Part shown: positions 13,555 through 16,610 of the stretch, in pieces
Layout: each line of letters starts with the position of its first letter
How positions within the stretch are numbered: position 1 is the first letter of the stretch
Assembly (NCBI GenBank): GCA_016197155.1
Contig: JACPWF010000025.1
Location: 28,276 to 92,275 of the forward strand
Origin: Candidatus Omnitrophota bacterium
Lineage (GTDB): Bacteria > Omnitrophota > Gorgyraeia > 2-02-FULL-51-18
Length of the DNA: 64,000 nt
Direction: 5' to 3'
Translations under genes and position numbers: made by a program
Notes under the pieces: model-generated
What the model was told of the DNA's origin: nothing
Database searches by the model: none
The model's input: the letters and a program-made list of their open reading frames with translations, nothing else

Positions 13555-14421
13555 TTAAAAAAAATTTTTAGCCGTTTCCACCAGTTCTTCGGCGGAAAAA
13601 ACGTTTTCGGAGTCCGCGGCGGCCGCGGCGGCGGTCAATTCCAACCGATAAAACTCCGCCACGTTGTCGTTGTAAAATTTGAGGTTGTCGCGGAAGCGCT
13701 TGGCGATGACTTCCAGATTTGCCCAGACGGCGTCGATCGCGCACACCGCGAACGCGTCGCCGCCGTAGCGGCAAAGAACGTCGGATCGCCGAAAGGAAGT
13801 CTTTAAAATCTCGGCGGCGCGGGTCAAGGCCCGGCTACCCTCCTTGTAACCGAGGCCTTCGTTCATTTTGTTGAGATTGGCGACCTGAAAATGAAAGAAG
13901 AGATGCCCCTTTTTCGTGCGCGGTAAAAGTTTGAGCTGCTGCTCGGCCACGATCGAGAACCCTCTGCGGTTGTACAGGCCCGTGAGATCGTCGAGCAAAA
14001 GATTTTCGCACAGTTCCCGGTGAGCCCTGTTTCTCGCCACGGCGCGGCGCACCAGGCGCGCGATCCGCCCGGCGTCGCGCTCGGATTTGAAGAGACCGTC
14101 GTCGGCGCCGAAGCGAACGGCCTTTTCAATGAGAGGTTCCTCGGTCTCGCCGGCGAGAACGAGGATGGGGATGCCGCGCGCGCGGGAACGAAGCGAAAAA
14201 AAGGCGTCCATCCCCTTGGCCTCGGGCAGAGCCAAATCCACAAGTACCGCGTCCGCGCCGCCGCGCTTCAAAAATTCGAGGCCGTCCTTCAGCGAGCCGG
14301 TGTGCTCGAGACGACAGTCAGGGGCGTGTTTTTTAAAAATATCGTTTAGGAAAAGCGGGTAGTCGGGATCGGCCGTGATGAGAAAAACGCGGACCGATGG
14401 GTTTTCGTGAGCGGCGGACAT
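13555..14421 (-). CDS. response regulator: receiver domain + degenerate GGDEF domain
   Basis: Receiver (VLVDLALPE phospho-Asp context, ...LFKS). GGDEF domain starts DLTGLYNRRGF, but the signature reads RYGGDAF and the upstream metal-binding DxD is absent. Confidence 0.75.
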   Translation of the reverse strand: MSAAHENPSVRVFLITADPDYPLFLNDIFKKHAPDCRLEHTGSLKDGLEFLKRGGADAVLVDLALPEAKGMDAFFSLRSRARGIPILVLAGETEEPLIEKAVRFGADDGLFKSERDAGRIARLVRRAVARNRAHRELCENLLLDDLTGLYNRRGFSIVAEQQLKLLPRTKKGHLFFHFQVANLNKMNEGLGYKEGSRALTRAAEILKTSFRRSDVLCRYGGDAFAVCAIDAVWANLEVIAKRFRDNLKFYNDNVAEFYRLELTAAAAAADSENVFSAEELVETAKNFF

Positions 14422-14473
14422 CTGGATTTAATCTAACGGGTCACGGCGATAAAATCAATATTAAAAACAAAAA

Positions 14474-14562
14474 CGGAGAGGTAGGGATTCGAACCCTAGG
14501 ACCCGTTTTACCAGGTCAGTCACTTAGCAGGCGACTGCAATCGGCCTCTCTGCCACCTCTCC
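14474..14562 (-). tRNA. tRNA-Ser (anticodon GCU)
   Basis: Reverse complement GGAGAGGUGGCAGAG...: 7-bp acceptor stem, anticodon loop CUGCUAA, long variable arm, T-arm UAGGGUUCGAAUCCCUA, 89 nt, no encoded CCA. Confidence 0.8.
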
Positions 14563-14696
14563 TAAAATTAAAACTATCCATCTTTACTCAGCCTCTCCCT
14601 GCCTGCCGGCAGGCAGGTGCCACCTCTCCTAAAATTAAAACTATCCATCTTTACTCAGCCTCTCCCTGCCTGCCGGCAGGCAGGTGCCACCTCTCC
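14563..14696. repeat. perfect tandem duplication of a 67-bp unit containing a 20-bp GC palindrome and a copy of the tRNA-Ser 5' end
   Basis: Unit taaaattaaaactatccatctttactcagcctctccctgcctgccggcaggcaggtgccacctctcc occurs twice back-to-back (14563-14629, 14630-14696). Each copy ends with tgccacctctcc, the complement of tRNA nt 1-12, followed by taaaatt. Confidence 0.9.
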
Positions 14697-14740
14697 TAAA
14701 ATTTTAAAAAATGTTTATAGATTTTAAATTTATCCGATCC

Positions 14741-14829
14741 TGGCGGAGAGGGTAGGATTCGAACCTACGGTCGCCAGTGGCGACAGCGGTTTTCAAGACC
14801 GCCGCATTAGACCACTCTGCCACCTCTCC
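14741..14829 (-). tRNA. tRNA-Ser (anticodon UGA), CCA encoded
   Basis: Reverse complement GGAGAGGUGGCAGAGUGGUCUAAUGCGGCGGUCUUGAAAACCGC...: anticodon loop CUUGAAA, long variable arm, T-arm UAGGUUCGAAUCCUA, terminal CCA present. Confidence 0.8.
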
Positions 14830-15059
14830 CTGATCCACTTCCGTCCTTGACCTGATTTTAAAAAGTTTTCTCTCTGTCTGGCACGGGTGTAATCAGACAA
14901 TTCTTCCTCATAGAACAAAACCCAGGGACGATAAGGCTTGGTGGATTTCACCTTGCCTGAGTTATGAGATTGAAGTCTGGTGAAAGACATTCCTTCTCGG
15001 CTTGAGCCAATATAGAAACCTTTTTTTGATTCACTGTAAAGGATATAAACACAAGACAC
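14793..15059 (-). CDS. GIY-YIG nuclease-family small protein (YhbQ/UPF0213-like)
   Basis: VYILYSESKKGFYIGSS...RLQSHNSGK...STKPYRPWVLFYEEE...RARQRENFLKSGQGRKWI matches the GIY-YIG / YhbQ pattern. The last ~13 codons overlap the 5' half of tRNA-Ser(UGA). Confidence 0.7.
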   Translation of the reverse strand: MSCVYILYSESKKGFYIGSSREGMSFTRLQSHNSGKVKSTKPYRPWVLFYEEELSDYTRARQRENFLKSGQGRKWIRERWQSGLMRRS

Positions 15060-15095
15060 TCTTATCCCTTTCCCTTAAAGCGGTTTTTCCGCCAA

Positions 15096-15195
15096 AGGCG
15101 CCCGCCTGCCGGTCGGGCAGGGACTCGCCTCCGGCGGGCAAGACCGCCGCATTAGACCACTCCCTGCCTGCCGGCAGGCAGGTGCCACCTCTCCT
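15096..15195. repeat. tRNA-fragment / GC-palindrome repeat block
   Basis: 15139-15162 copies nt 14793-14816 of tRNA-Ser(UGA) (caagaccgccgcattagaccactc). A third copy of cctgcctgccggcaggcagg lies at 15163-15182 and of tgccacctctcc at 15184-15195, overlapping the serS stop codon. A related palindrome cctgccggtcgggcagg lies at ~15104-15122. Confidence 0.7.
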
Positions 15196-16465
15196 ATTTC
15201 TTAATCACCGCCATTCCGCCCAGGTACGGCCGCAGGACTTCCGGCACGCGCACCGAGCCGTCGGCGTTTTGATTGTTTTCCAAAATCGCGATGACGACGC
15301 GCGGCAGAGCCAGTCCCGAGCCGTTCAGCGTGTGGACGAATTCCGATTTATTCGAATTTTTTCTTTTGAAGCGGATATTCGCGCGCCGCGCCTGAAACGC
15401 CTCAAAGTTGGAAACCGACGACACCTCGAGCCATCGCCCCAGGCCCGCGGCCCAGGCCTCGATGTCGTAGCACTTGGCCGCCGCGAAGCCCATGTCGCCG
15501 CTCGAAAGCTGGATCACGCGATAGGGAATTTCCAAAAGATCTAAAATTTTCTCCGCGTCTTTCAGAAGCGACTCGTGCGCCTTGTAGGAATCCTCCGGCT
15601 TCGTGAATTTGACGAGCTCCACTTTGTCAAACTGGTGCACGCGCACAAGGCCCTTGGTGTCTTTTCCGTAGGAACCCGCTTCGCGGCGGAAACACGGCGT
15701 GTAGGCCGTGTATTTCAAAGGCAGGTCCTCTTCTTTCAAAATCTCGTCGCGGTGAAGGTTCGTCACCGGCACCTCGGCCGTGGGGATGAGAAAAAGGTCG
15801 TCGTCCTTCAGGCGGTAGAGGTCTTCTTCGAATTTCGGAAGCTGTCCCGTGCCCGTCATGCTCGCGCGGTTCACGAGAGACGGCGGCCAGATTTCCGTGT
15901 AGCCGTGCGCGGCGTGCCGGTCGAGCATGAAATTGACCAGCGCGCGCAGAAGGCGCGACCCCGTCCCCCAAAAAAGCGGAAAAGCGCTTCCCGTAATCTT
16001 GGCCGCGCGCGCCATGTCGAGGATCCCGAGGGTCTGGCCGATTTCCGTGTGTTCCCGGGGTTTGAAACTGAATTTGGGAATGTCCCCGCGATGCGAAACT
16101 TCCGTGTTGGCACGGCTGTCGGCGCCGATCTTCACGGATTCGTGAGGCAGATTGGGGATGAGAAGGAGTTCTTCTCTAAATTTTATTTCAATCTCCTCCG
16201 CCTTCGCTTCGAGCGCGCCGATTTTTTGCGAGGCCTCTTTCATGGAGGCGATGAGGGCCTTGGGGTCTTTTTTTTCTTTTAGGACCCGCGAGATCTCGTC
16301 GTTTTTTCTGTTTTTTTGACCGCGGAGTCCGTCAAGCTCGGTTTGGACCGCACGGCGTTTGGCGTCGAGCGCCAGGAACGCGTCGAATGGAAATTTCGGA
16401 GCCCTGGTTTTCAGGAGCTCCTTCACTTTTTCCTGATTGTCACGAATAAACGATACATCCAGCAT
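15194..16465 (-). CDS. serS: seryl-tRNA synthetase
   Basis: Class II aaRS motifs and SerS N-terminal coiled coil. Start at [11 protein letters not shown]; the ORF-track upstream extension overlaps tRNA-Lys and is discounted. Confidence 0.9.
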
Positions 16466-16537
16466 GGGGAGATTATAGCGAATACGCCGATGGTGAGCAA
16501 GGCGGATGGCCAAAAGGCCATCCGCCGCGTCGAACCA

Positions 16538-16610
16538 TGAGGCGCCCGGGACTTGAACCCGGCACACCTTCCTTAAAAGGGAAGTGCTCTACCAGATGAG
16601 CTAGCGCCTC
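16538..16610 (-). tRNA. tRNA-Lys (anticodon UUU)
   Basis: Reverse complement GAGGCGCUAGCUCAUCUGGUAGAGCACUUCCCUUUUAAGGAAGGUGUGCCGGGUUCAAGUCCCGGGCGCCUCA; anticodon loop CUUUUAA; 73 nt. Confidence 0.8.

What the first reader, a model, noticed from the sequence alone, without database searches (positions are those of the whole stretch)
14793..15059. GIY-YIG (YhbQ-like) ORF whose 3' end is encoded by the tRNA-Ser(UGA) gene
The 88-codon ORF has the GIY...YIG, R, H-N-x-G-K and E motifs of the GIY-YIG nuclease superfamily. Its final ~13 codons overlap nt 1-37 of the tRNA on the same strand. Because the tRNA lies on the same strand inside the ORF, any transcript covering the ORF also contains the tRNA 5' half. 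Such an arrangement is unusual and would couple expression of the nuclease-family protein to tRNA transcription or processing.
Basis: partly seen in the sequence, partly recalled or inferred. Interest (0 to 1): 0.55.

Follow-up and report, generated by a model that had tools for sequence, protein, structure and literature searches.

The report
tRNA-gene-invading GIY-YIG nuclease cassette
The small nuclease gene that runs into tRNA-Ser is one copy of a widespread, apparently undescribed selfish DNA cassette that inserts into bacterial tRNA genes, rebuilds the tRNA from a copy of its front half, and leaves behind a broken tRNA fragment plugged with conserved DNA hairpins.

Summary
An 88-codon GIY-YIG ORF (15059..14793, minus strand) shares its last 37 nt with tRNA-Ser(UGA) (14829..14741), and its TGA stop codon is the anticodon. 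The overlap is not the important feature. In 62 of 80 homologous loci from many phyla a same-strand tRNA starts within 130 nt of the nuclease domain, but half of those ORFs stop before the tRNA. The conserved feature is a cassette: a pseudo-copy of the tRNA 5' part, interrupted in the anticodon and/or D-loop by a conserved hairpin module, then a short leader, the ORF and an intact tRNA. The window has this, plus two ORF-less 67-nt mini-units before tRNA-Ser(GCU). A related genome (L085) has serS followed directly by an intact tRNA-Ser(UGA), an empty site. Another (L081) has an ORF-less remnant there. Identical tandem arrays occur elsewhere. The best reading is a homing-type selfish element that cuts tRNA genes at a loop-coding position and is copied in by repair while regenerating the tRNA. 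Cleavage and mobility are inferred, not shown. Six literature searches and Rfam found no description of it.

The parts
15194..16465 (-). serS (seryl-tRNA synthetase). Its TAG stop (15196-15194) shares its last G with nt 1 of the pseudo-tRNA. It marks the ancestral position of tRNA-Ser(UGA).
   Evidence: Pfam tRNA-synt_2b and Seryl_tRNA_N. In the orthologous locus L085 an intact tRNA-Ser(UGA) starts 3 nt after the serS stop. The start at ATG 16465 is inferred from where the Pfam N-terminal domain begins (residue 35 of the longest ORF).
15183..15194 (-). Pseudo-tRNA-Ser(UGA), nt 1-12 (GGAGAGGTGGCA)
   Evidence: Exact copy of nt 1-12 of the intact tRNA
15163..15182 (-). Module B: a perfect 20-nt palindrome, CCTGCCTGCCGGCAGGCAGG, inserted in the D-loop position (after tRNA nt 12) of the pseudo-tRNA
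   Evidence: It occurs 3 times in 64 kb against 0 expected, each time after nt 12 of a tRNA-Ser 5' fragment. The identical 20-mer sits in D-loops of pseudo-tRNA-Arg, -Lys and -Asn next to GIY-YIG genes in L025, L055 and L079, which come from three other phyla.
15139..15162 (-). Pseudo-tRNA-Ser(UGA), nt 13-36, ending at the 2nd anticodon base (...CTTG)
   Evidence: 24/24 identical to 14794-14817 (repeat D4, spacing 345 nt)
15088..15138 (-). Degenerate module A (double hairpin) with a nested palindrome-like insert, lying between the 2nd and 3rd anticodon bases of the pseudo-tRNA
   Evidence: The only hit of covariance model R1 in the window (19.3 bits, E=0.02). It has the same position and flanks (CTTG|...GGCGGA|AAAAC) as the canonical 30-nt modules in more than 25 other loci.
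15079..15087 (-). Pseudo-tRNA-Ser(UGA), nt 37-45 (AAAACCGCT), the end of the duplicated tRNA part
   Evidence: Gapped alignment of the intact tRNA to the upstream region covers nt 1-45
15060..15078 (-). 19-nt purine-rich leader (TTAAGGGAAAGGGATAAGA) before the GTG start, possibly the ribosome-binding site
   Evidence: Sequence. Equivalent 0-40-nt leaders are seen in other loci. The function is inferred.
14793..15059 (-). GIY-YIG nuclease ORF (88 aa). The conserved core is residues 1-76. Residues 77-88 and the stop codon are encoded by tRNA nt 1-37.
14741..14829 (-). Intact tRNA-Ser(UGA). Under the proposed model nt 1-36 came in with the element and nt 37-89 are the original gene.
   Evidence: ARAGORN, Rfam tRNA 62.8 bits. 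The origin of the two parts is inferred.
14563..14696 (-). Two identical ORF-less 67-nt mini-units. Each is tRNA-Ser(GCU) nt 1-12, then module B, then nt 13-19, then a 28-nt AT-rich spacer.
   Evidence: Repeat families D1 and D2. The same design is seen in L057, with 7 units of 101 nt before a tRNA-Ser(CGA).
14474..14562 (-). Intact tRNA-Ser(GCU), directly following the mini-units
   Evidence: ARAGORN, Rfam tRNA 48.7 bits

Best explanation
The ORF belongs to a selfish, homing-type mobile cassette of about 0.3 kb that lives in bacterial tRNA genes. The cassette consists of a conserved hairpin module, a few nucleotides of tRNA relic, a short leader, a domain-only GIY-YIG nuclease gene of about 76 aa, and a copy of the tRNA's 5' part. 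In the window that copy is nt 1-36, ending inside the anticodon. The cassette sits at a loop-coding position of the target tRNA gene: the anticodon at canonical 35/36 in the window's lineage, and the D-loop in others. The element-borne 5' part joins the resident 3' part to regenerate a working tRNA. The displaced original 5' part stays upstream as a pseudo-tRNA with the module sitting at the break point. In the window the ORF runs into the tRNA only because the cassette ends with tRNA sequence. The TGA stop is completed across the junction, with TG from the element and A from the target.

Proposed mechanism (inferred): the nuclease cuts or nicks an unplugged tRNA gene at that loop position. 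It may recognise DNA structure more than sequence, since it lacks a DNA-binding domain and most resembles SLX1. The broken left end (...tRNA nt 1-36) invades the pseudo-copy of an occupied allele, copies module, ORF and tRNA, and re-anneals in the tRNA 3' part. This would account for first-time insertion, identical tandem arrays (repeated cutting of the regenerated tRNA), ORF-less mini-arrays (deletion derivatives served in trans), and modules accumulating in every cleavable loop of the pseudo-copies.

Shown here: the architecture, its recurrence, empty and occupied alleles, covariation in the module, and the intact catalytic motifs. Inferred: nuclease activity, the cleavage site, the repair pathway and the role of the module.
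For: (1) Recurrence. 62 of 80 homologous loci from Patescibacteria, Omnitrophota, Planctomycetota, Bacteroidota, Ignavibacteria, Elusimicrobia, Margulisbacteria and others have a same-strand tRNA within 130 nt of the domain end (median 19.5 nt), and 6 more are cut by contig ends.
(2) An upstream copy of the same tRNA's 5' part is present in nearly all, often nt 1-36 exact. It carries an insert after the 2nd anticodon base and/or in the D-loop, and ends 5-20 nt after the last insert.
(3) The insert is a conserved 30-nt double hairpin. Model R1 finds it directly upstream of the ORF in about 60 loci at E<1e-6. 6 of 12 pairs show compensatory changes in the (hand-picked) seed set of 16, and 672 of 684 stem positions are Watson-Crick in 57 unique instances.
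(4) Insertion polymorphism at the window's own locus: L085 is empty (serS stop, 2 nt, intact tRNA), L081 has an ORF-less remnant, and the window is occupied.
(5) Tandem arrays of identical units: L057 with 4 x 326 nt and L029 with 2 x 331 nt. ORF-less arrays: L057 with 7 x 101 nt, and the window with 2 x 67 nt.
(6) A full form in L026, L074 and L017 has the target split at 36/37, with modules on both sides and a replacement tRNA inside.
(7) Protein clades follow tRNA type and insertion loop (rough NJ tree).
(8) The protein is a bare GIY-YIG core closest to UPF0213 and SLX1, with catalytic residues invariant across homologues.
Against: No biochemical or expression data exist, so cleavage, its site and homing are all inferred. 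The regenerated tRNA keeps the putative target site, so self-immunity is unexplained. Tandem arrays could equally arise by unequal crossing-over once a duplication exists. A 76-aa domain-only nuclease has no obvious means of sequence-specific recognition. If the module were only a plug, its sequence and structure would not need to be so conserved. In L017 the downstream 3' half does not match the acceptor stem of the upstream 5' copy, which does not fit a simple single-event history. All loci come from MAGs or metagenome contigs. No copies were found on viral contigs, so the vehicle for spread between phyla is unknown. The window's anticodon module is degenerate and the ORF starts with GTG, so this copy may be old or inactive.
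Confidence: 0.62

Rival explanations
1. The hairpin modules are the true mobile units, comparable to REP/RAYT or IS200/IS605-type hairpin elements. The small GIY-YIG protein is their structure-specific nickase or transposase, inserting hairpins into loops of folded single-stranded DNA (tRNA-gene D and anticodon arms, and the loops of other modules). The tRNA duplications and the position of the ORF are by-products of repair at those sites.
For: Modules occur without an ORF (the window mini-units, L057 7 x 101 nt, L081). They nest inside other modules' loops (window, L014, L031, L040, L042, L026). Several kinds exist: A, half-A and B. They always lie in positions that are loops of the tRNA cloverleaf. 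The stems covary, so pairing matters, and they are symmetric on both strands as expected for DNA hairpins. The closest characterised relative, SLX1, is structure-specific.
Against: In 482 kb of loci plus window the modules are almost confined to tRNA pseudo-copies next to these ORFs. The window has none elsewhere in 64 kb, unlike REPs and MITEs. The module never appears inside an intact tRNA. This model does not by itself explain why the ORF is always followed by a tRNA 5' part, or why the duplication starts at about tRNA +1.
Confidence: 0.2
2. One reading: a resident (not mobile) small nuclease gene whose expression is coupled to tRNA transcription and processing through the overlap. For example, RNase P cleavage at tRNA +1 would remove the stop codon and lead to tmRNA tagging. 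The nearby tRNA fragments would then be incidental local duplications.
For: Same-strand adjacency is conserved. No convincing separate promoter or terminator lies between the ORF and the tRNA. In 31 of 62 loci the ORF ends inside or beyond the tRNA, so processing would truncate the mRNA.
Against: The other 31 ORFs stop before the tRNA. The window's locus has empty and occupied alleles. There are identical tandem copies, several copies per genome and a patchy distribution across phyla. The conserved modules and the duplicated tRNA part are left unexplained.
Confidence: 0.06
3. A decayed remnant of an anticodon-loop group I intron that carried a GIY-YIG homing endonuclease, as in I-TevI-type introns. 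The hairpin module would be what is left of the ribozyme.
For: The anticodon-type module sits at canonical position 35/36, the same site as the self-splicing group I introns of Patescibacteria tRNAs (PMC13011429). GIY-YIG homing endonucleases are typical intron passengers.
Against: There is no Intron_gpI or any other ribozyme hit. The 345-nt insert is almost entirely ORF. The 30-nt module is conserved in its own right and also occurs in D-loops. An intact tRNA follows the ORF, so no splicing is needed. The protein is UPF0213/SLX1-like and has no I-TevI-type DNA-binding domain.
Confidence: 0.04

Closest known systems
Free-standing GIY-YIG homing endonuclease genes of T-even phages, especially SegB in the T4 tRNA gene cluster (PMC2330249)
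   Same: A GIY-YIG nuclease gene embedded among tRNA genes. The proposed spread is the same: a double-strand break in a tRNA-gene region of a naive genome, followed by repair that copies the nuclease gene and its flanks, with no intron or intein.
   Different: Seg proteins are more than twice as long and carry DNA-binding domains, whereas this protein is a bare core of about 76 aa. SegB does not duplicate or rebuild its target and has no hairpin module. It is phage-borne, whereas these copies are chromosomal in many bacterial phyla, and none was found on viral contigs.
UPF0213 / YhbQ (COG2827) small GIY-YIG proteins (PDB 1YWL, 1ZG2)
   Same: The best sequence matches among solved structures (E=5e-11 and 2e-8) and the top fold match. 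They have the same single-domain size.
   Different: Their function is unknown, and none of the six literature searches found tRNA linkage reported for them. The tRNA-linked proteins share an extra FLKSGxGRKW motif, and no NCBIfam model matches.
SLX1 structure-specific endonuclease
   Same: The closest characterised catalytic domain (hmmsearch E=4e-5; Foldseek rmsd 2.2 A over 71 residues). It suggests a structure-directed mode of DNA cutting that would fit hairpin and loop targets.
   Different: SLX1 has a RING domain, needs SLX4 and is a eukaryotic repair enzyme. It has no mobile-element context.
Integrase-based islands and prophages that integrate into tRNA genes
   Same: The same host-sparing logic: the element carries a partial copy of the tRNA gene, so that insertion regenerates an intact tRNA and leaves a partial duplicate at the other end.
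   Different: Those elements use tyrosine or serine recombinases, usually duplicate the 3' part, and are kilobases long. Here the insert is about 345 nt with only a GIY-YIG ORF, and the 5' part is duplicated.
Group I introns in bacterial tRNA anticodon loops, including the 35/36 site in Patescibacteria (PMC13011429)
   Same: The same insertion hot-spot (anticodon, canonical 35/36) and overlapping host range. Both solve the problem of sitting inside an essential tRNA gene.
   Different: Introns restore the tRNA by RNA splicing. This cassette has no ribozyme and restores the gene at the DNA level by supplying a new 5' part.
REP/RAYT elements and MITE-like palindromic repeats
   Same: Short GC-rich hairpin-forming DNA modules that multiply and nest, possibly acted on by a dedicated nuclease.
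   Different: REPs are dispersed genome-wide in intergenic regions. These modules are confined to tRNA-derived pseudo-copies, and the associated protein is GIY-YIG, not an HUH transposase.

Membership tests
GIY-YIG nuclease superfamily (Pfam PF01541) | Match to the family HMM above the curated threshold | tested here: met
   42.1 bits against a cut-off of 22.6, E=1.1e-10, residues 1-70
GIY-YIG nuclease superfamily (Pfam PF01541) | Conserved catalytic residues (the GIY and YIG tyrosines, Arg, His/Asn, Glu) | tested here: met
   Y5, Y16, G18, R28 and E64 are invariant, and H32 and N33 are at least 90% conserved in 39 homologues. All are present in the window protein.
GIY-YIG nuclease superfamily (Pfam PF01541) | The alpha/beta GIY-YIG fold | tested here: met
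   AlphaFold mean pLDDT 91.5, element order E-E-H-E-H-H. Foldseek top hits are 1ZG2, Slx1 6SEH and I-TevI 1LN0, although all Foldseek E-values are above 0.001.
GIY-YIG nuclease superfamily (Pfam PF01541) | Metal-dependent nuclease activity | not testable with these tools
   Needs purified protein
UPF0213 / YhbQ-like small GIY-YIG proteins | Single-domain protein of about 80-110 aa whose closest relatives are UPF0213 members | tested here: met
   Best PDB sequence matches are 1YWL (5.3e-11) and 1ZG2 (2e-8)
UPF0213 / YhbQ-like small GIY-YIG proteins | Match to a curated family-specific model | tested here: inconclusive
   No NCBIfam model matches at E<=0.01. Orthology to E. coli YhbQ was not tested.
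Homing endonuclease genes (free-standing) | Presence/absence polymorphism at a defined site in a conserved gene | tested here: met
   At the serS / tRNA-Ser(UGA) locus, L085, L136 and L083 are empty, L081 has an ORF-less remnant, and the window is occupied. This compares related taxa (SerS 57-79% identical), not strains of one species.
Homing endonuclease genes (free-standing) | Patchy distribution across distant hosts | tested here: met
   Homologues 55-69% identical occur in Omnitrophota, Patescibacteria, Planctomycetota and Thermodesulfobacteriota
Homing endonuclease genes (free-standing) | Site-specific cleavage of the empty allele by the encoded protein | not testable with these tools
   Needs a biochemical or genetic assay
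Homing endonuclease genes (free-standing) | A DNA-binding domain giving recognition of a long target | tested here: not met
   The conserved protein is only the catalytic core of about 76 aa. The C-terminal residues are tRNA-encoded and variable.
Homing endonuclease genes (free-standing) | The occupied allele is immune to cleavage | tested here: inconclusive
   The upstream copy is interrupted by a module exactly at the putative site, but the regenerated tRNA keeps an intact site
Integrase-type tRNA-targeting integrative elements | An element-borne partial tRNA copy that regenerates the gene | tested here: met
   Duplicated tRNA nt 1-36/45 flank the ORF. It is the 5' part, not the usual 3' part.
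Integrase-type tRNA-targeting integrative elements | A tyrosine or serine recombinase encoded by the element | tested here: not met
   The 345-nt insert holds only the GIY-YIG ORF
Group I intron in a tRNA gene | A group I ribozyme core | tested here: not met
   No Rfam intron hit in 14300-15400 at E<=1
REP/MITE-like dispersed palindromic repeats | Many copies dispersed through intergenic regions | tested here: not met
   Module B occurs 3 times and module A once in 64 kb, all inside tRNA-Ser pseudo-copies

The most novel reading that the evidence does not exclude
Target choice may be made by nucleic acid and not by the protein. The pseudo-tRNA arms flanking the conserved double-hairpin module would act, as DNA or as a transcript, as a guide with a handle: the arms pair with the matching tRNA gene, and the hairpins recruit the minimal 76-aa GIY-YIG nuclease to cut at the position the module marks. 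This would explain how a nuclease with no DNA-binding domain has been retargeted among Ser, Lys, Gln, Asn, Arg, Leu and Tyr tRNA genes, and between the anticodon and the D-loop, while keeping the same module. It would be a new kind of programmable, guide-directed homing system.
Probability: 0.1. Interest if true: 0.95.

Novelty: new variant of a known kind. Interest (0 to 1): 0.8.

Why it matters
If this is right, tRNA genes in many bacterial phyla, especially the CPR/Patescibacteria, Omnitrophota and Bacteroidota, host a tiny class of selfish element that has gone unnoticed. The element solves the problem of living inside an essential gene without an intron or an intein, by rebuilding the gene at the DNA level. 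This would:
- give thousands of "GIY-YIG nuclease family protein" annotations a biological context;
- explain tRNA-gene fragments, tandem repeats and contig breaks next to tRNA genes in MAGs, including tRNA mis-calls such as the 100-nt "tRNA-Ser(GCU)" in L026;
- provide a minimal (about 76 aa) nuclease plus a conserved 30-nt DNA hairpin module with apparent site selectivity, worth testing as a tool;
- offer a natural system for studying how homing elements change targets.

Tried and rejected
- **Rfam**: only the two intact tRNAs pass. The weak miRNA and sX4 hits are palindrome artefacts.
- **NCBIfam**: no family matches.
- **Viral contigs**: 30 pattern matches, none confirmed as a relative, so there is no evidence for phage carriage.
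- **Generic double-hairpin scan**: the first run crashed on N bases, and the second was far too permissive (about 2,600 hits). I replaced it with covariance model R1.
- **Duplication boundary exactly at tRNA +1** (which would hint at an RNA intermediate): rejected. Several loci also duplicate 4-7 nt of 5' leader.
- **RNA-specific structure for the module**: not supported. G·T and A·C mismatches are equal at 4 each, and the element is symmetric on both strands.
- **Thermodynamic folding**: it does not settle one long hairpin against two hairpins. Covariation favours two (98% against 82% paired).
- **Promoter/terminator scan**: counts are no higher than in shuffled sequence.
- **Literature**: six searches and a reading of PMC13011429 found no description. 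One attempted search and one paper query failed on syntax. Subscription-only papers are not covered.
- **Other copies in the window**: no second GIY-YIG gene was found. A second, module-B-type nuclease elsewhere in this genome is suspected but not found.
Full report
**1. The observation**

Everything lies on the minus strand. The ORF listing gives an 88-codon ORF at 15059..14793 with a GTG start. ARAGORN gives tRNA-Ser(UGA) at 14829..14741, and Rfam's tRNA model confirms it at 62.8 bits. The two share 37 nt (14829..14793), which is tRNA nt 1-37. Reading the sequence shows that the ORF's TGA stop codon is the UGA anticodon itself.

Pfam GIY-YIG matches residues 1-70 (E=1.1e-10, 42.1 bits against a cut-off of 22.6). 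An AlphaFold model built on 39 homologues is confident (mean pLDDT 91.5). Its last helix spans residues 70-82 and its last six residues have low confidence. The closest solved relatives are the UPF0213/YhbQ-type proteins 1YWL and 1ZG2, then SLX1. Foldseek agrees, placing 1ZG2 first, Slx1 second (rmsd 2.2 A over 71 residues) and the I-TevI catalytic domain third.

**2.

Directly upstream of the ORF, starting at the last base of the serS stop codon, lies a second copy of the same tRNA's 5' part, interrupted twice:
- tRNA nt 1-12 at 15194..15183
- a perfect 20-nt palindrome, CCTGCCTGCCGGCAGGCAGG, at 15182..15163
- tRNA nt 13-36 at 15162..15139, which is 24/24 identical to the intact gene (repeat D4)
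- a 51-nt GC-rich insert at 15138..15088
- tRNA nt 37-45 at 15087..15079
- a 19-nt leader, then the ORF

Downstream of the intact tRNA there are two identical 67-nt units. Each consists of tRNA-Ser(GCU) nt 1-12, the same palindrome, nt 13-19 and a 28-nt AT-rich spacer. The intact tRNA-Ser(GCU) at 14562..14474 follows them. The palindrome occurs three times in the 64 kb against none expected, always after nt 12 of a tRNA-Ser 5' fragment.

**3. The arrangement recurs widely**

A protein search found 48 homologues. Many of their C-termini are translated tRNA 5' ends, such as ERWQSGRMRRS, WLSGLKRRS, RDGRVV and GEVA. Several mis-called N-termini are translations of an upstream tRNA fragment followed by a GC-rich element.

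A scan of one genome per species returned 393 relatives, and I fetched the best 80. They come from Patescibacteria/CPR, Omnitrophota, Planctomycetota, Bacteroidota, Ignavibacteria, Elusimicrobia, Margulisbacteria, Verrucomicrobia and others.
- In 62 of 80 loci a same-strand tRNA starts within 130 nt of the end of the conserved domain (median 19.5 nt). Six further loci are cut by a contig end.
- The tRNAs are mostly Ser (UGA 24, CGA 9, GGA 3, GCU 1), but also Lys, Gln, Asn, Arg, Leu and Tyr.
- The overlap itself is not conserved. The stop codon lies before the tRNA in 31 loci, inside it in 21, equals the anticodon in 6, and the frame reads through the whole tRNA in 4.

So the tail is incidental, and the adjacency is the conserved feature.

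**4. The conserved cassette**

In nearly all loci the ORF is preceded by a copy of the same tRNA's 5' part, often nt 1-36 exact. A gapped alignment shows that this copy:
- starts at tRNA +1, or a few nucleotides before it;
- carries an insert after the 2nd anticodon base (canonical 35/36) and/or in the D-loop (after nt 11-12, 17 or 20-22);
- ends 5-20 nt after the last insert, after which a 0-40-nt leader and the ORF follow.

The usual insert, module A, is a conserved 30-nt pair of 6-bp hairpins with consensus CCCGCCAGAGGCGGG-TCCGCCTCCGGCGGA.
- A covariance model built from 16 hand-picked instances finds it at E<1e-6 in about 60 loci, almost always just upstream of the ORF. It scores only once, weakly, in the window (15088-15138, E=0.02).
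- In the seed set, 6 of 12 pairs show compensatory double changes (this set is biased because I chose clean instances).
- In 57 unique instances recovered by the search, 672 of 684 stem positions are Watson-Crick. These instances were recovered with a structure-aware model, so the pairing figure leans towards that structure.
- G·T and A·C mismatches are equal at 4 each, so nothing points to an RNA-only structure.
- Loop 1 is purine-rich and loop 2 pyrimidine-rich, so both strands look alike.
- The two-hairpin fold fits better than one long hairpin (98% against 82% paired). Thermodynamic folding alone is ambiguous on this point.

The window's 20-nt palindrome, module B, is not private to this genome. 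The identical 20-mer sits in the D-loops of pseudo-tRNA-Arg, -Lys and -Asn next to GIY-YIG genes in a Lewinellaceae (L025), a Yanofskybacteria (L055) and a Planctomycetales (L079) genome. Modules also nest inside other modules' loops, in the window and in L014, L031, L040, L042 and L026. Rfam has no family for any of this.

**5. Evidence for mobility**

- **Alleles at one locus.** I used the window's SerS to fetch orthologous loci from metagenomes. In L085 (SerS 79% identical, same serS / tRNA-Ser(UGA) / tRNA-Ser(GCU) synteny) the intact tRNA starts 3 nt after the serS stop, with no remnant, module or nuclease gene. L136 and L083 are similar. L081 (75%) has an ORF-less pseudo-copy with hairpin inserts, followed by an intact tRNA. 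The window is occupied. The window's pseudo-tRNA therefore sits exactly where the ancestral tRNA was.
- **Tandem arrays of identical units.** L057 has 4 x 326 nt and L029 has 2 x 331 nt. L045 has two slightly diverged units.
- **ORF-less arrays.** L057 has 7 x 101 nt before another tRNA-Ser, which is the same design as the window's 2 x 67 nt.
- **A fuller form.** L026, L074 and L017 have the layout [tRNA 1-36] module [relic] ORF [intact tRNA] spacer [..CTTG] module [tRNA 37-end]. That is a target split at 36/37 by an insert bounded by modules and carrying a replacement tRNA. About 8 of 59 testable loci keep such a downstream half.
- **Lineages track targets.** A rough NJ tree of the protein cores groups them by tRNA type and insertion loop.

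**6. Most likely mechanism**

I read this as a homing-type selfish cassette. In the window it spans about 345 nt, from 15138 to 14794. It consists of the module, a relic of tRNA nt 37-45, the leader, the ORF and tRNA nt 1-36, inserted between the 2nd and 3rd anticodon bases of tRNA-Ser(UGA).

The element-borne nt 1-36 join the resident nt 37-89 to give a working tRNA. This is why the ORF runs into the tRNA, and why its stop codon is completed by the target's A.

A cut at that position in an unplugged tRNA gene, repaired by synthesis-dependent strand annealing from an occupied allele, reproduces the observed structure. The left end invades the pseudo-copy, copies module, ORF and tRNA, and anneals in the tRNA 3' part. 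Repeated cutting of the regenerated tRNA would give identical tandem arrays. Internal deletion would give ORF-less units that can still expand if the nuclease is supplied in trans. Pseudo-copies would collect a module at every cleavable loop, because a module plugs the site and so protects the element from deletion.

The nuclease lacks a DNA-binding domain and resembles SLX1, so recognition of DNA structure (hairpins or cruciforms of the tRNA arms and of the modules) is plausible.

All steps involving cleavage and repair are inferred. The unresolved weaknesses are these:
- the regenerated tRNA keeps the presumed target site;
- the module is too strongly conserved for a mere plug;
- unequal crossing-over could also make the arrays;
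- the halves in L017 do not match a single-event history.

**7. Rivals**

- **Modules as the mobile units, with the GIY-YIG protein as a REP/RAYT-like structure-specific nickase (0.2).** This fits the nesting, the solo modules and the loop targeting. It does not fit the confinement of modules to tRNA pseudo-copies or the constant ORF-tRNA junction.
This is contradicted by the empty and occupied alleles, the tandem copies and the 31 ORFs that stop before the tRNA.
- **A decayed group I intron with a homing endonuclease (0.04).** This is suggested only by the shared 35/36 site (PMC13011429). It is contradicted by the lack of any ribozyme and by the intact tRNA that follows the ORF.

**8. Comparison with what is known, and novelty**

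The protein is a member of the GIY-YIG superfamily and is UPF0213/YhbQ-like.

As a system it works most like free-standing GIY-YIG homing genes such as T4 segB, which cuts tRNA-gene DNA (PMC2330249). It also shares the "carry a partial tRNA to heal the target" logic of integrase-based islands. It fails defining features of each:
- it has no DNA-binding domain;
- it has no recombinase;
- it has no ribozyme;
- its repeats are not dispersed.

Six full-text searches, including searches for the module sequences themselves, found no description. NCBIfam has no model for the protein and Rfam none for the module. The literature library does not cover subscription journals, so a prior description cannot be excluded.

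I rate it a new variant of a known kind (homing-type selfish elements), with unusual features: DNA-level regeneration of the target and a conserved hairpin module at the insertion point.

**9. Verdict**

The finding is one instance of a widespread, apparently undescribed cassette that invades tRNA genes. Interest is 0.8. Confidence in the mobile-cassette explanation as stated is about 0.6. Confidence is higher for "mobile cassette that regenerates the tRNA" taken alone, and lower for the specific cut-and-repair pathway.

Noticed in passing
window 14793-14795 (minus strand): The ORF's TGA stop codon is the UGA anticodon of the tRNA. Under the insertion model, TG comes from the element and A from the target, so the stop is assembled at the junction. 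In relatives sitting in tRNA-Ser(CGA) (L003, L013) the same frame reads through the entire tRNA.
   Followed up: partly
window 15097-15112 and 15171-15186: The D-loop palindrome of the pseudo-tRNA is complementary to the palindrome-like insert nested in the anticodon module. Folded as single-stranded DNA, the 116-nt remnant forms a long stem enclosing tRNA nt 13-36 (-40.6 kcal/mol, z=-4.6). Its significance is unknown.
   Followed up: partly
L029 3242-3572 (both tandem units): The GIY-YIG ORF has an in-frame TGA at the position of the family's conserved Trp (RPW). It is identical in both tandem copies. Either this host reads UGA as a sense codon (an alternative genetic code) or both copies are pseudogenes.
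   Followed up: no
L085, about +110 to +262 after the serS stop: In the empty-site relative, a small coiled-coil ORF (MKSPEADDNFDKIRKDLKRLIAELERCYGEIAELKGENQKLRQALKRLKD) lies between tRNA-Ser(UGA) and tRNA-Ser(GCU), and its stop overlaps the start of the second tRNA. In the window this interval holds an AT-rich spacer and the two 67-nt mini-units.
   Followed up: no
window 16465-16610: The longest serS ORF (GTG at 16567) overlaps tRNA-Lys(UUU) at 16538-16610 on the same strand. The Pfam N-terminal domain begins at residue 35, so the real start is probably the ATG at 16465.
   Followed up: partly
L026 3336-3435: ARAGORN calls a 100-nt 'tRNA-Ser(GCU)' here. It is really a 3' half of a tRNA-Ser(UGA) preceded by GGTCTTG and a 30-nt module. 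This is an example of how these cassettes can cause tRNA mis-annotation in MAGs.
   Followed up: yes
L074 3364-3600: Two downstream copies of the tRNA-Lys 3' half carry the module at 36/37 and also a further 31-nt insert in the T-arm region (taggcctgcccgtccgtagctttagcgaagg). The T-loop may therefore be a third insertion site.
   Followed up: no
window 14855-14884 (minus strand): A sigma-70-like match (GTGCCA, 18-nt spacer, TAAAAT) lies inside the ORF's conserved ENFLKSG-coding stretch, about 26 nt upstream of tRNA +1. Promoter-like matches in the region are no more frequent than in shuffles, so this may be chance.
   Followed up: no
L081-L160 (serS loci): In many Omnitrophota-like relatives the seryl-tRNA synthetase gene is followed on the same strand by one to three tRNA-Ser genes, so the enzyme gene is linked to its own substrate tRNAs. 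Distances range from 3 nt to about 1.3 kb.
   Followed up: partly
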